Source of the DNA: a phage | Reading direction: 5' to 3' (one strand) | Length of the DNA: 4,221 nt | Sequence record: NC_138367.1 | In this document: positions 1 through 4,125 of the stretch, piece by piece | Layout of the letters: each line of letters starts with the position of its first letter | Numbering within the stretch: the first letter of the stretch is position 1 | Translations under genes and position numbers: made by a program | The notes under the pieces: model-generated | The model's database searches: none | Seen by the model: only the letters and a program-made list of their open reading frames with translations | Told to the model about the DNA's origin: nothing

Positions 1-4
1 GGGG

Positions 5-22
5 GACCCCCCTTAGGGGGTC
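5..22 (+). promoter_or_regulatory. 5'-terminal hairpin of the phage RNA within the 5' UTR (1..61); genome begins GGGGG
   Basis: Seen in sequence: 5-GACCCCC-11 pairs with 16-GGGGGUC-22 (7 bp, loop CUUA at 12..15). A G-rich 5' end followed by a stable hairpin is the characteristic 5' terminus of Qbeta-like genomes, whose complement forms the minus-strand 3' end. Confidence 0.7.
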
Positions 23-53
23 ACCTCACACAGCAGTATTTCACTGAGTATGA

Positions 54-58
54 GAGGA
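54..58 (+). promoter_or_regulatory. Shine-Dalgarno element for A2 (GAGGA)
   Basis: GAGGA at 54..58 lies 3 nt upstream of the AUG at 62..64. An in-frame AUG at 50..52 sits upstream of this SD and so has no ribosome-binding site of its own. Confidence 0.6.
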
Positions 59-61
59 CAT

Positions 62-1324
62 ATGCCTAAATTACCACGTGGTCTGCGTTTCGGAGCCGAT
101 AATGAAATTCTTAATGATTTTCAAGAGCTCTGGTTTCCAGATCTCTTTATCGAATCTTCCGACACGCATCCGTGGTACACACTGAAAGGTCGTGTGTTGA
201 ATGCCCATCTTGATGATCGTCTACCTAATGTAGGCGGTCGTCAGATCAGGCGTACTCCACATCGTGCTACTGTTCCGATTGCCTCTTCAGGCCTTCGTCC
301 GGTAACAACCGTTCAGTATGATCCCACAGCACTATCGTTCTTATTGAACGCTCGTGTTGATTGGGATTTCGGTAATGGCGATAGTGCGAACCTTGTCATT
401 AATGACTTTTTGTTTCGTACTTTCGCGCCTAAGGAGTTCGATTTCTCGAATTCCTTAGTTCCTCGTTATACTCAGGCCTTCTCCGCTTTTAATGCCAAGT
501 ATGGCACTATGATCGGCGAAGGGCTCGAGACTATAAAATATCTCGGGCTTTTACTGCGCAGACTGCGTGAGGGTTACCGCGCTGTTAAGCGTGGCGATTT
601 ACGTGCTCTTCGTAGGGTTATCCAGTCCTACCATAAGGGTAAGTGGAAACCAACTACTGCTGGTAATCTCTGGCTTGAATTCCGTTATGGTCTTATGCCT
701 CTCTTCTATGACATCAAAGACGTCATGTTAGACTGGCAGAAGCGCCATGATAGGATTCAACGCCTCCTTCGGTTTTCGGTTGGTCACGGTGAGGATTATG
801 TTGTCAAATTCGACAGCTTATATCCAGCCGTTTCTTACTTTAAACTAAGAGGGGAGATTACACTCGAACGCCGTCATCGTCATGGTATATCTTACGCTAA
901 TCGCGAGGGATATGCTGTTTTCGATAACGGTTCCCTTCGGCCTGTGTCCGATTGGAAGGAACTTGCCACTGCATTCATCAATCCTCATGAAGTTGCATGG
1001 GAGTTAACTCCCTACAGCTTCGTTGTTGATTGGTTTTTGAATGTCGGTGACATACTTGCTCAGCAGGGTCAGCTATATCATAATATCGATATTGTAGACG
1101 GTTTTGACAGACGTGACATTCGACTCAAATCTTTCACTATAAAAGGTGAACGAAATGGGCGACCTGTTAACGTTTCTGCCGACCTGTCTGCTGTCGATTC
1201 ATTTTACAGCCGACTCCATACGACCAAGCTTCCGTTCGCTACACTCGATCTCGATACTACCTTTAGTTCGTATAAACACGTTCTTGATAGTATCTTTTTA
1301 TTAACCCAACGCATTAAGCGTTGA
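62..1324 (+). CDS. A2: A2 maturation protein (attachment to F-pilus; in Qbeta-type phages also the lysis protein, inhibiting MurA)
   Basis: ORF 50..1324 in frame 2. The start is placed at AUG 62 (MPKLPRGLRFGADNEIL...) because it follows the SD. This gives 1263 nt = 420 aa plus UGA stop at 1322..1324, the size and N-terminus I recall for Qbeta A2. It is the first gene of the genome, as in all leviviruses. Confidence 0.9.
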   Translation: MPKLPRGLRFGADNEILNDFQELWFPDLFIESSDTHPWYTLKGRVLNAHLDDRLPNVGGRQIRRTPHRATVPIASSGLRPVTTVQYDPTALSFLLNARVDWDFGNGDSANLVINDFLFRTFAPKEFDFSNSLVPRYTQAFSAFNAKYGTMIGEGLETIKYLGLLLRRLREGYRAVKRGDLRALRRVIQSYHKGKWKPTTAGNLWLEFRYGLMPLFYDIKDVMLDWQKRHDRIQRLLRFSVGHGEDYVVKFDSLYPAVSYFKLRGEITLERRHRHGISYANREGYAVFDNGSLRPVSDWKELATAFINPHEVAWELTPYSFVVDWFLNVGDILAQQGQLYHNIDIVDGFDRRDIRLKSFTIKGERNGRPVNVSADLSAVDSFYSRLHTTKLPFATLDLDTTFSSYKHVLDSIFLLTQRIKR

Positions 1325-1746: not shown

Positions 1747-2337
1747 ACACTGCTCATTGCCGGTGGTGGCTCAGGGTCTAAACCCGATCCGGTTATCATT
1801 CCGGATCCACCGATCGATCCGCCGCCAGGGACAGGTAAATATACTTGTCCTTTCGCAATTTGGTCCCTAGAGGAGGTTTACGAGCCTCCTACTAAGAACC
1901 GACCGTGGCCTATCTATAACGCTATCGAACTCCAGCCTCGCAAGTTTGATGTTGCCCTTAAAGATCTTTTGGGCAATACAAAATGGCGCGACTGGGATTC
2001 ACGGCTTAGTTATACCACGTTTCGCGGTTGCCGTAGCAACGGTTATATTGACCTTGATGCGTCTTATCTTGCTACTGATCAGGCTATGCGTGATCAGAAG
2101 TACGATATTCGCGAAGGCAAGAAACCCGGTGCTTTCGGTAACGTTGAGCGATTCATTTATCTTAAGTCGATAAATGCTTATTGCTCTCTTAGCGATATTG
2201 CGGCCTATCACGCCGATGGTGTGATAGTTGGCTTTTGGCGCGATCCATCTAGTGGTGGTGCCATACCGTTTGACTTCACTAAGTTTGATAAGACTAAATG
2301 TCCTATTCAAGCCGTGATAGTCGTTCCTCGTGCTTAG
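1345..2337 (+). CDS. A1: A1 read-through protein (coat protein with C-terminal extension; minor capsid protein required for infectivity)
   Basis: The coat frame continues through UGA 1744..1746 into ...TLLIAGGGSGSKPDPVIIPDPPIDPPPGTGKYTCPFAIWSLEEVYEPP...AVIVVPRA and ends at tandem stops UAG UAA (2335..2340). Total is 330 sense codons including the read-through codon. The Gly/Pro-rich linker after the coat domain is typical of A1. Confidence 0.85.
1744..1746 (+). other. Leaky UGA stop codon of the coat gene (programmed read-through site, decoded at low frequency by tRNA-Trp)
   Basis: The coat ends in UGA followed by A (UGA-A). The same frame stays open with no stop from 1747 to the UAG at 2335..2337, which I checked codon by codon. 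This is the hallmark of Qbeta-type A1 read-through. Confidence 0.85.
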
Positions 2338-2342
2338 TAACT

Positions 2343-2347
2343 AAGGA
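2343..2347 (+). promoter_or_regulatory. Shine-Dalgarno element for the replicase gene (AAGGA)
   Basis: AAGGA at 2343..2347 lies 8 nt upstream of AUG 2356. The AUG at 2347..2349 overlaps the SD itself and is therefore an unlikely start. Confidence 0.6.
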
Positions 2348-2351
2348 TGAA

Positions 2352-2371
2352 ATGCATGTCTAAGACAGCAT
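2352..2371 (+). promoter_or_regulatory. Coat-protein translational operator hairpin at the replicase start (repressor binding site and packaging signal)
   Basis: Seen in sequence: AUGCAUGUCUAAGACAGCAU forms an 8-bp stem with a single bulged A (position 2356, the A of the start codon) and a 3-nt loop UAA (2361..2363). The replicase AUG (2356..2358) lies inside the 5' arm. This matches the known Qbeta operator architecture of 3-nt loop plus bulged A. Confidence 0.8.
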
Positions 2372-4125
2372 CTTCGCATAACTCTCTTAGCGCACAATTG
2401 CGCCGAGCTGCGAACACAAGAATTGAGGTCGAAGGTAACCTCGCACTTTCCATCGCCAACGATCTACTGTTGGCTTATGGTCAATCGCCATTTAACTCCG
2501 AAGCTGAGTGTATTTCACTCAGTCCGAGATTTGACGGGACCCCGGATCACTTTAGGATAAATTATCTTAAAGCCGAGGTCATGTCGAAGTATGACGATTT
2601 CAGCCTAGGTATTGATACCGAAGCTGCTGCCTGGGAAAAGTTCCTGGCAGCAGAGGCTGAATGTGCTTTAACGAACGCTCGTCTCTATAGGCCTGACTAC
2701 AGTGAGGATTTCAATTTCTCACTGGGCGAGTCATGTATTCACATGGCTCGCAGAAAAATAGTCAAGCTAATAGGAGATGCTCCGTCCGTTGAGGGTATGT
2801 TGCGTCACTGCCGATTTTCTGGCGGTGCCACAACAACGAATAACCGTTCGCACGGCCATCCGTCCTTCAAGTTTGCGCTTCCACAAGCGTGTACGCCTCG
2901 GGCTTTGAAATATGTTTTGGCTCTTAGAGCTTCTACACATTTCGATATCAGGGTTTCTGATATTAGCCCTTTTAATAAAGCAGTTACTGTACCTAAGAAC
3001 AGTAAAACCGATCGTTGTATTGCTATCGAACCCGGCTGGAATATGTTTTTTCAACTAGGCATCGGTGGCATCCTACGCGATCGGTTGCGTTGCTGGGGTA
3101 TCGATCTGAACGATCAGACGATAAATCAGCATCGCGCTCACGAAGGCTCCGTTACTAATAATTTAGCAACGGTTGATCTCTCAGCGGCAAGCGATTCTAT
3201 ATCTCTTGCTCTCTGTGAGCTCTTATTGCCCCCAGGTTGGTTTGAGGTTCTTATGGATCTCAGATCACCAAAAGGGCGGTTGCCTGACGGTAGTGTTGTT
3301 ACCTATGAGAAAATATCCTCGATGGGTAACGGATACACATTCGAGCTTGAGTCGCTTATCTTTGCTTCTCTTGCTCGTTCCGTTTGTGAGATACTGGACT
3401 TAGACTCGTCTGAGGTCACTGTTTACGGAGACGATATTATTTTACCGTCCTGTGCAGTCCCTGCCCTTCGGGAAGTTTTTAAGTATGTTGGTTTTACGAC
3501 CAATACTAAAAAGACTTTCTCCGAGGGGCCGTTCAGAGAGTCGTGCGGTAAGCACTACTATTCTGGCGTAGATGTTACTCCCTTTTACATACGTCACCGT
3601 ATAGTGAATCCTACCGATTTAATATTGGTTTTGAATAACCTATATCGGTGGGCCACGATTGATGGCGTATGGGATCCTAGGGCCCATTCCGTATACCTCA
3701 AGTATCGTAAGTTGCTGCCTAAACAGCTGCAACGTAATACTATACCTGATGGTTACGGTGATGGAGCCCTCGTCGGATCGGTCTTGATCAATCCTTTCGC
3801 GAAAAACCGCGGGTGGATCCGGTACGTACCGGTGATCATAGACCACACAAGGGACCGAGAGCGCGTTGAATCGGGGTCGTATCTTTACGACCTCTTTTCG
3901 CGTTGTTTCTCGGAAGGTAACGATGGGTTGCCTTTAAGGGGTCCGTCGAGTTGCGATTCTGTAGATCTATCTGCCATTGATCAACTTATCTGTAGGAGTA
4001 ATCCTACAAAGATAAGTAGATCTACCGGTAAGTTCGATATACAGTATATCGCGTGCGGTAGCCGTGTTCTGGCACCCTACGGGGTTTTCCAGGGCACGAA
4101 GGTTACATCTCTACACGAGGTATAA
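2356..4125 (+). CDS. rep: RNA-dependent RNA polymerase, replicase beta subunit
   Basis: AUG 2356 (MSKTASSHNSLSAQLRRAANTRIEVEG...) to UAA 4123..4125 is 1770 nt = 589 aa. The catalytic YGDD motif is encoded at 3424..3435 (TAC GGA GAC GAT, in ...SSEVTVYGDDIILPS...). Size and sequence match the Qbeta replicase. Confidence 0.93.
   Translation: MSKTASSHNSLSAQLRRAANTRIEVEGNLALSIANDLLLAYGQSPFNSEAECISLSPRFDGTPDHFRINYLKAEVMSKYDDFSLGIDTEAAAWEKFLAAEAECALTNARLYRPDYSEDFNFSLGESCIHMARRKIVKLIGDAPSVEGMLRHCRFSGGATTTNNRSHGHPSFKFALPQACTPRALKYVLALRASTHFDIRVSDISPFNKAVTVPKNSKTDRCIAIEPGWNMFFQLGIGGILRDRLRCWGIDLNDQTINQHRAHEGSVTNNLATVDLSAASDSISLALCELLLPPGWFEVLMDLRSPKGRLPDGSVVTYEKISSMGNGYTFELESLIFASLARSVCEILDLDSSEVTVYGDDIILPSCAVPALREVFKYVGFTTNTKKTFSEGPFRESCGKHYYSGVDVTPFYIRHRIVNPTDLILVLNNLYRWATIDGVWDPRAHSVYLKYRKLLPKQLQRNTIPDGYGDGALVGSVLINPFAKNRGWIRYVPVIIDHTRDRERVESGSYLYDLFSRCFSEGNDGLPLRGPSSCDSVDLSAIDQLICRSNPTKISRSTGKFDIQYIACGSRVLAPYGVFQGTKVTSLHEV
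2550..2870 (+). promoter_or_regulatory. Approximate M-site (internal replicase binding region within the 5' part of the replicase gene), placed by positional homology
   Basis: Established knowledge for Qbeta: an internal replicase binding site needed for plus-strand template recognition lies in the replicase gene roughly 1.3-1.6 kb from the 3' end. Coordinates are approximate, transferred from memory, and not demonstrated by this sequence alone. Confidence 0.3.

What the first reader, a model, noticed from the sequence alone, without database searches (positions are those of the whole stretch)
50..64. In-frame upstream AUG at 50..52 preceding the A2 start
An AUG at 50..52 is in frame with A2 and would add four residues (MRGH) to the maturation protein. 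It lies upstream of the GAGGA Shine-Dalgarno (54..58), so initiation at 62 is much more likely. From memory the reference Qbeta has no AUG here, which would make this a strain-specific point difference, but I cannot verify that without an alignment.
Basis: partly seen in the sequence, partly recalled or inferred. Interest (0 to 1): 0.2.

Follow-up and report, generated by a model that had tools for sequence, protein, structure and literature searches.

The report
Incidental upstream AUG in Qbeta leader
The extra in-frame AUG 12 bases before the maturation-protein start of this Qbeta-type RNA phage is real, but it is the by-product of a common, harmless A/G polymorphism at a base-paired leader position and is very unlikely to be a working start codon.

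Summary
ATG 50-52 is in frame with the A2 start at ATG 62-64 and would add MRGH. It lies 5' of the GAGGA Shine-Dalgarno at 54-58. The window is a complete Qbeta-clade genome. Its 420-aa A2, read from 62, is exactly ACT66733.1.

The AUG is not strain-specific, though. Position 52 is G in 6 of 12 Qbeta-clade genomes and A in the other 6. It needs about 4 independent A/G changes on the genome tree. The same mutation (A51G in lab numbering) reached 45% in one published evolution line.

Position 52 sits in a 15-bp long-distance helix (44-58 with 460-475) that buries the A2 ribosome binding site in full-length RNA. It pairs with U467, the invariant first base of a Tyr codon. A-U and G-U give the same helix energy, and pyrimidines cost about 2.6 kcal/mol.

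AUG50 has only a GAG one base upstream (-2.2 kcal/mol, against -5.8 for AUG62). No depositor or database records an MRGH-extended A2.

Verdict: ordinary near-neutral variant, low interest.

The parts
14..16 (+). In-frame TAG that closes the A2 reading frame upstream; the only in-frame ATG between it and the A2 start is 50-52
50..52 (+). Upstream in-frame AUG (the finding); it exists only when position 52 is G
   Evidence: alignment
52..52 (+). A/G polymorphic leader site. G in 6 and A in 6 of 12 Qbeta-clade genomes. Minimum 4 changes on the in-group tree. It equals A51G in Anc(P1) numbering, which reached 45% in lab line 37.2_r1
54..58 (+). Shine-Dalgarno GAGGA serving AUG62 (GAGG core, 4-nt spacer). 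It is conserved in every Qbeta-clade sequence aligned; MX1 and M11 have C at position 58 (GAGGC)
62..1324 (+). A2 maturation/lysis protein gene, 420 aa plus stop. The product is identical to ACT66733.1. Pfam Phage_mat-A, E 1.6e-137
   Evidence: relatives annotated at the homologous ATG
44..58 (+). 5' strand of the long-distance helix that buries AUG50, site 52 and the Shine-Dalgarno once about 475 nt have been synthesised
460..475 (+). 3' strand of the long-distance helix, inside A2 codons 133-138, with G465 bulged. U467, the partner of site 52, is the first base of Tyr136 (UAU) and is invariant in all 16 aligned sequences

Best explanation
The AUG at 50-52 is an incidental by-product of a near-neutral purine polymorphism in the A2 leader. 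It is not a functional start.

Shown here. Position 52 lies in the 5' strand of a 15-bp long-distance helix (44-58 pairing with 460-475). In RNA longer than about 475 nt this helix sequesters the A2 Shine-Dalgarno. Site 52 pairs with U467, which cannot change because it is the first base of a conserved Tyr codon. A52-U467 and G52-U467 give equal helix stability, and pyrimidines at 52 destabilise the helix. The site accordingly flips between A and G in nature and in the laboratory, while the rest of the leader is almost invariant.

Inferred. On short nascent plus strands the 30S subunit docks on GAGG 54-57 and places AUG62 in the P site. AUG50 is 5' of that Shine-Dalgarno and has no usable one of its own. 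It therefore contributes little or no initiation. Because it is in frame and no stop follows, any rare initiation there would only make A2 with four extra N-terminal residues. This would explain why the allele carries no visible cost.
For: (1) Alignment of 15 genomes: G at 52 in window, VK, TW18, FrBurgundy, FrHibiscus and GIII_C. A in BR12, BZ1, three lab Qbeta records, FrMerlot and FrSangria, and in one IMG/VR contig.
(2) Alleles are interspersed on the whole-genome NJ tree. Fitch minimum is 4 in-group changes, with 5 including the outgroup in 86 of 100 bootstraps. Site 52 is among the 49 of 4176 most homoplastic sites. The others are almost all third codon positions. The other three variable leader sites in 14-61 each changed once.
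(3) RNAalifold and single-sequence MFE of the first 480 and 900 nt both give the helix 44-58:460-475, with P(52:467) = 0.98-0.99.
(4) Duplex energy is -21.8 (G52), -21.7 (A52), -19.0 (C) and -19.3 (U) kcal/mol.
(5) Pair counts: 86.6% of cells are paired against 36-46% for slid controls, and 4 pairs carry compensatory changes. Pair 52:467 is AU in 8 sequences, GU in 6 and other in 2.
(6) T467 is invariant in 16 sequences including SP and NL95, and it is the first base of TAT.
(7) Duplex with the 16S rRNA 3' end: -5.8 kcal/mol with a 4-nt spacer for AUG62, and -2.2 kcal/mol with a 1-nt spacer for AUG50. The A/G state of 52 makes no difference.
(8) All records of relatives annotate the downstream ATG. 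The window's own 420-aa product is ACT66733.1. None of six MRGH-extended versions exists among about 15 billion proteins.
(9) A51G (= window 52) reached 45% in lab line 37.2_r1 (PMC7354602 Table 1).
[quoted passage not shown] It cites Beekwilder et al. 1996.
Against: No protein-level data exist for any G52 strain, so a low level of initiation at AUG50 is not excluded. SD-independent initiation does occur in E. coli, and AUG50 is predicted about 65% unpaired on 80-160-nt nascent chains. Equilibrium folding of nascent lengths 220-460 nt predicts a somewhat less open RBS with G52 in this window (ratio 0.69), so strict neutrality is not proven. A51G rose to 45% in one lab line, and the neighbouring leader sites 47, 52 and 54 also changed. 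This could mean the segment is under selection rather than drifting. The helix is a prediction supported by covariation; I could not read the primary probing paper.
Confidence: 0.78

Rival explanations
1. The A/G state of position 52 tunes how much A2 is made. It would do this by changing transient structures of the nascent plus strand, and so the time window before the long-distance helix closes. The polymorphism would then be selected, for example by temperature or host, and the AUG itself would be irrelevant.
For: Partition-function scans of nascent lengths predict lower SD and AUG62 accessibility with G52 between about 220 and 460 nt in the window. The summed index is 3.39 against 4.76, or a ratio of 0.69. 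In the lab thermal-adaptation and reversion experiment, four leader sites changed frequency. All four (Anc 47, 51, 52, 54 = window 48, 52, 53, 55) lie in the 5' strand of the helix or in the SD. A52G was major (>90%) in the 45.3 C populations of lines 2 and 3 and reached 72% in line 1. When line 1 was returned to 37 C, A52G fell from 72% to 22% while A51G rose to 45%.
Against: Swapping the allele in 12 natural backgrounds gives G/A accessibility ratios from 0.69 to 1.37, with no consistent direction. The G52-specific intermediate pairing (47-53 with 262-268) uses synonymous sites that differ among G-allele strains. The final helix energy is unchanged. Natural helix stability already ranges from -13.7 to -21.8 kcal/mol among viable strains. 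Both alleles occur in sister strains from the same surveys.
Confidence: 0.13
2. AUG50 is a genuine secondary initiation site. G52 strains would then make a minor MRGH-A2 isoform alongside normal A2.
For: AUG is the best start codon. It is in frame with no intervening stop. It is predicted to be mostly unpaired on short nascent chains (P unpaired about 0.67). The allele is common, so an extended product cannot be strongly harmful.
Against: AUG50 lies 5' of the only real Shine-Dalgarno. Its best upstream match is GAG at 1-nt spacing, -2.2 kcal/mol. A 30S subunit docked on GAGG 54-57 occupies the same stretch and selects AUG62. Half of the clade lacks the codon entirely, as do MX1, M11, SP and NL95, so no conserved function can depend on it. 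No extended protein is recorded anywhere. The same genome carries an in-frame AUG 6 nt upstream of the replicase start, conserved in all 13 Qbeta-clade records aligned, and no record annotates it as the start.
Confidence: 0.08
3. The G at 52 is a sequencing or assembly error in this record.
For: It is a single-base difference from the laboratory reference, close to the 5' end, where RACE-derived sequence can be poor.
Against: The same base is present in five other independently sequenced isolates from Japan, Taiwan and the USA, produced by different laboratories. It was also seen as a real population variant in a lab line.
Confidence: 0.01

Closest known systems
A2 ribosome binding site of laboratory Qbeta (AB971354, GQ153931, AY099114)
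   Same: The leader is identical from 40 to 75 except at position 52 and the synonymous codon-5 site at window 76. It has the same GAGGA, the same AUG start and the same downstream complement UCCUCGUUAUACUCAG.
   Different: Laboratory Qbeta has AUA where the window has AUG, so it has no upstream start codon.
Temporal control of Allolevivirus A2 translation by a downstream complement of the Shine-Dalgarno (Beekwilder et al. 1996, as summarised in PMC6071253)
   Same: The window has the SD region paired to a segment about 400 nt downstream. The helix is the MFE solution and is supported by covariation with MX1 and M11.
   Different: Nothing differs in kind. The window merely has a G-U instead of an A-U at one pair. 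I could not read the primary paper to compare pair by pair.
MS2 (Emesvirus) maturation-gene control by an upstream complementary sequence and a kinetic trap (PMC4615214)
   Same: The maturation-gene SD is masked by a long-distance interaction, so only nascent strands are translated.
   Different: In MS2 the complement is upstream in a 5' cloverleaf and a metastable hairpin provides the delay. Here the complement is downstream in the coding region, and the delay is the synthesis time.
In-frame AUG 6 nt upstream of the Qbeta replicase start (window 2347-2349 versus 2353-2355)
   Same: It is an in-frame AUG inside the ribosome binding site of a phage gene. The mechanical ORF finder picks it, but no record annotates it as the start.
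   Different: That AUG is invariant in all 13 Qbeta-clade records aligned and lies 3' of its SD (AAGGA). AUG50 is polymorphic and lies 5' of its SD.
Lab-evolved leader mutation A52G (window 53) in thermally adapted Qbeta (PMC7354602)
   Same: It is the adjacent base, also an A-to-G change opposite a U (U466) in the same helix strand.
   Different: A52G turns AAGAGG into AGGAGG and strengthens the SD duplex from -5.8 to -10.2 kcal/mol. It was seen in all three 45.3 C populations (>90% in lines 2 and 3, 72% in line 1). The window's change leaves the SD duplex unaltered.

Membership tests
Qubevirus durum (Qbeta clade) genome | Full-length nucleotide similarity and the gene order A2, coat/A1 read-through, replicase | tested here: met
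   95.8% identity over 100% of the window to strain TW18 and 92-95.7% to 17 other Qbeta records. The ORFs match the relatives' annotation.
Phage maturation protein (Pfam PF03863, Phage_mat-A) | Profile match above the curated cut-off | tested here: met
   E 1.6e-137, 459 bits against a cut-off of 25. The match covers residues 40-424 of the 424-aa ORF.
Functional SD-led bacterial start codon (applied to AUG50) | Shine-Dalgarno complementarity about 5-10 nt upstream of the start codon | tested here: not met
   The best duplex with the 16S 3' end in the 20 nt upstream is GAG 46-48, -2.2 kcal/mol, with a 1-nt spacer. For AUG62 it is GAGG, -5.8 kcal/mol, with a 4-nt spacer.
Functional SD-led bacterial start codon (applied to AUG50) | Start codon conserved among close relatives | tested here: not met
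   Present in 6 of 12 Qbeta-clade genomes. Absent in MX1, M11, SP and NL95.
Functional SD-led bacterial start codon (applied to AUG50) | Protein product with the predicted N-terminus observed | not testable with these tools
   No MRGH-extended A2 of six G-allele strains is in the 15-billion-protein collection. That collection reflects annotation, not proteomics.
Regulatory upstream ORF / leader peptide | A separate short ORF with its own stop, upstream of or overlapping the main start | tested here: not met
   AUG50 is in frame with A2 and no stop follows until 1322-1324. It could only give an N-terminal extension.
Long-distance helix masking the Allolevivirus A2 ribosome binding site | SD region complementary to a downstream segment, and the helix dominant in the folded 5' domain | tested here: met
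   15 bp, -21.8 kcal/mol. It is the MFE solution for the first 480 and 900 nt, with SD unpaired probability 0.03.
Long-distance helix masking the Allolevivirus A2 ribosome binding site | Pairing maintained across relatives, with compensatory changes | tested here: met
   86.6% of cells paired against 36-46% in slid controls. Four pairs have changes on both sides (MX1/M11). 0 of 500 shuffles reach the covariation score. The outer pairs 46-48 carry mismatches in several strains.
Long-distance helix masking the Allolevivirus A2 ribosome binding site | Experimental structure probing and translational effect | not testable with these tools
   The primary paper (PMID 8609616) is not held. Only the review statement was available.

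The most novel reading that the evidence does not exclude
Position 52 is a natural two-state switch under fluctuating selection. The G allele would lower or delay A2 synthesis through nascent-strand folding, or supply a minor MRGH-A2 isoform. Roughly half of wild Qbeta lineages would then carry a functionally different dose or form of maturation/lysis protein. The repeated A/G flips in nature and in the temperature-shift experiment would be adaptive rather than neutral.
Probability: 0.07. Interest if true: 0.4.

Novelty: already known. Interest (0 to 1): 0.1.

Why it matters
It matters little. The value of the check is practical. Mechanical ORF callers will report a 424-aa A2 for about half of wild Qbeta-type genomes, and the correct call remains the 420-aa protein starting at 62. 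The case is also a tidy example of how a coding constraint on one strand of a regulatory helix (U467 in a Tyr codon) restricts the non-coding partner to purines. That restriction lets a start codon appear and disappear with no apparent effect. If the rare alternative were true, and the allele tunes A2 dose, it would bear on lysis timing, because A2 is also the lysis protein.

Tried and rejected
- Megablast of the whole window found no identical record in 'phages' (best 95.8%). FJ483841 is absent from that collection. Identity was settled instead by exact protein look-up (ACT66733.1).
- Scans of IMG/VR and of the metagenome contigs for AGTATNAGAGGACATATGCC gave only one further Qbeta contig (A allele, the same contig in both collections) and one chance match in a human-gut contig. 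No larger allele census was possible.
- The Rfam scan of the whole window found nothing relevant, only a sub-threshold miRNA hit.
- Beekwilder et al. 1996 could not be read. A literature search for FJ483841 gave nothing.
- I tested whether G52 improves or creates a Shine-Dalgarno for AUG62. It does not: the duplex is -5.8 kcal/mol for both alleles.
- I tested whether G52 stabilises the masking helix. It does not: -21.8 against -21.7 kcal/mol.
- I tested whether G52 consistently closes the RBS on nascent chains. The result was inconsistent across 12 backgrounds, so the tuning idea is kept only as a minor rival.
- A regulatory uORF was considered and rejected because the AUG is in frame with no stop.
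- Sequencing error was considered and rejected because six independent genomes share the base.
- The six initial annotated-region runs failed on an end coordinate beyond the record and were repeated.

Full report
**What the window is.** The 4221-nt window is a complete Qbeta-clade (Qubevirus durum) genome. Its best match is strain TW18, at 95.8% identity over 100% of the window. Seventeen other Qbeta records match at 92-95.7%. The 420-aa protein encoded from 62 to 1321 is identical to ACT66733.1, 'assembly/maturation protein', on a 4221-nt record. That accession falls between the protein series of FJ483840 and FJ483842, and FJ483841 is missing from the searchable collection. The window is therefore most probably that record; this last step is inference. 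The ORF is a Phage_mat-A protein (E 1.6e-137).

**Checking the observation.** The frame reads TAG(14-16)...MRGH-MPKLPRG with no stop between the two ATGs. The mechanical ORF list therefore gives 50..1324, 424 aa. One ATG in a 61-nt leader is what base composition predicts (0.96 expected). An in-frame one is expected 0.25 times. The triplet's presence alone is not remarkable.

**Comparison with relatives.** I aligned the 5' ends of 14 related genomes with the window. I later added one IMG/VR contig plus SP and NL95.
- The G is not private to this strain. VK (Japan), TW18 (Taiwan), FrBurgundy and FrHibiscus (USA) and GIII_C (Japanese wastewater) also have AUG.
- BR12, BZ1, FrMerlot, FrSangria, lab Qbeta and the IMG/VR contig have AUA.
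- MX1, M11, SP and NL95 have no upstream AUG.
- Every record annotates A2 at the homologous downstream AUG.
- None of six MRGH-extended proteins exists in the 15-billion-protein collection.

**Evolutionary behaviour of site 52.** On a whole-genome NJ tree the two alleles are interspersed. VK(G) is sister to BR12(A). FrMerlot(A) is sister to FrHibiscus and FrBurgundy (G). TW18(G) sits next to lab Qbeta(A). Fitch parsimony needs 4 in-group changes, or 5 with the outgroup in 86 of 100 bootstraps. Only 49 of 4176 sites are this homoplastic, and nearly all the others are third codon positions. The other three variable leader sites between 14 and 61 changed once each. Site 52 thus behaves like a freely toggling, near-neutral site inside an otherwise frozen leader. 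Recombination could also scatter the alleles, and I did not test for it.

**The same mutation in the laboratory.** Table 1 of PMC7354602 uses Anc(P1) numbering, in which A2 starts at 61. I checked this numbering against the sequence. Window position 52 is therefore Anc position 51.
- A51G was at 45% in population 37.2_r1, which is line 1 after its return to 37.2 C.
- In that same step the neighbouring A52G fell from 72% to 22%.
- G47A, A52G and A54G also appeared. All lie in the same purine-rich stretch.

**Why only purines.** RNAalifold on the first 480 and 900 nt pairs 44-58 with 460-475. So does single-sequence folding of the window. The helix has 15 bp with G465 bulged. It is the MFE solution, with P(52:467) of 0.98 and an SD unpaired probability of 0.03.
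- The helix is paired in 86.6% of sequence-by-pair cells, against 36-46% for slid controls.
- Four pairs show compensatory changes, contributed by MX1 and M11.
- 0 of 500 shuffles reach the observed covariation score.

[quoted passage not shown] 1996). I could not read the primary paper.

Site 52 pairs with U467. U467 is the first base of the Tyr136 codon UAU and is invariant in all 16 aligned sequences, including SP and NL95. The duplex energy is -21.8 kcal/mol with G52 and -21.7 with A52. It is -19.0 with C and -19.3 with U. The coding constraint on U467 therefore leaves the leader partner free to be A or G and nothing else. That is exactly what is seen: AU in 8 sequences and GU in 6.

**Can AUG50 initiate?** The best duplex between the 16S rRNA 3' end and the 20 nt upstream of AUG62 is GAGG, at -5.8 kcal/mol with a 4-nt spacer. 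For AUG50 it is GAG 46-48, at -2.2 kcal/mol with a 1-nt spacer. The A/G state of 52 changes neither value. AUG50 lies 5' of the only real Shine-Dalgarno. A 30S subunit docked there cannot place AUG50 in the P site; this follows from established initiation geometry and is inference here. In full-length RNA both AUGs and the SD are buried or constrained. On 80-160-nt nascent chains both alleles give the same accessibility.

The same genome offers a precedent. An in-frame AUG 6 nt upstream of the replicase start (2347) is conserved in all 13 Qbeta-clade records aligned. No record annotates it as the replicase start.

**Rival readings.**
- **Tuning of A2 synthesis.** In this window, G52 is predicted to reduce RBS accessibility at nascent lengths of 220-460 nt. 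Swapping the allele in 12 natural backgrounds gives G/A ratios from 0.69 to 1.37, with no consistent direction. The G-specific intermediate helix uses non-conserved synonymous sites. Natural strains already span -13.7 to -21.8 kcal/mol for the masking helix. I keep this rival at about 0.13, mainly because of the lab-evolution frequency changes.
- **A minor MRGH-A2 isoform.** This cannot be excluded without protein data. It has no positive support, and I put it at about 0.08.
- **Sequencing error.** Six independent genomes share the base, which excludes it.

**Verdict.** It needs one correction: the AUG is a common, recurrent allele rather than a strain-specific one. It also needs one addition: the allele is structurally silent because of A-U/G-U equivalence opposite a coding-constrained U. 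This is an ordinary, already deposited variant. The correct A2 call is 62..1324.

Noticed in passing
window 2347-2355: The replicase gene also has an in-frame ATG 6 nt upstream of its annotated start (ATG AAA TGC ATG TCT). The ORF lister therefore reports 2347..4125. This upstream ATG is identical in all 13 Qbeta-clade genomes aligned and absent in MX1 and M11.
   Followed up: partly
L011 (GQ153931, 'QB_ancestral') about 2350, aligned to window 2353: This laboratory record reads GTG instead of ATG at the annotated replicase start codon (AAATGCGTGTCT), while the upstream in-frame ATG is intact.
   Followed up: no
window 1798-1800: There is a 3-nt insertion in the A1 read-through domain relative to TW18, lab Qbeta, BR12, VK and BZ1. 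The Fr* phages and GIII_C have insertions at the same place, some of them longer. This accounts for the 4221-nt length.
   Followed up: partly
window 460-475 and homologous positions in L001-L010: The 3' strand of the RBS-masking helix carries synonymous changes in several strains that create mismatches (C472, A471, C466). Predicted helix stability ranges from -13.7 to -21.8 kcal/mol among viable isolates.
   Followed up: partly
window 48, 52, 53, 55 (Anc(P1) 47, 51, 52, 54): Four of the five leader mutations that appeared during the 43.7-45.3 C adaptation and 37 C reversion in the published experiment (PMC7354602 Table 1) fall in the 5' strand of the masking helix or the SD; the fifth is U39C. 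A52G converts AAGAGG to AGGAGG, and the predicted SD duplex goes from -5.8 to -10.2 kcal/mol.
   Followed up: partly
window 1-14: The 5' end reads GGGGGACCCCCCTT, as in the other FJ4838xx records. Lab Qbeta reads GGGGACCCCCTTT, with one fewer G and a C/T difference in the 5' hairpin loop. This could be real variation or an effect of the end-determination method.
   Followed up: no
L016 2499-2518 (human gut metagenome contig USUG01023787): This is an exact 20-nt match to the A-allele leader pattern in an unrelated contig. The surrounding sequence shows no similarity to Qbeta, so it is a chance match.
   Followed up: yes
window 1-200 versus whole genome: The first 200 nt are closest to VK and BR12 (99.0%), whereas the genome as a whole is closest to TW18 (95.8%, against about 92% for VK and BR12). 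The counts are too small to call recombination, and this was not tested.
   Followed up: no
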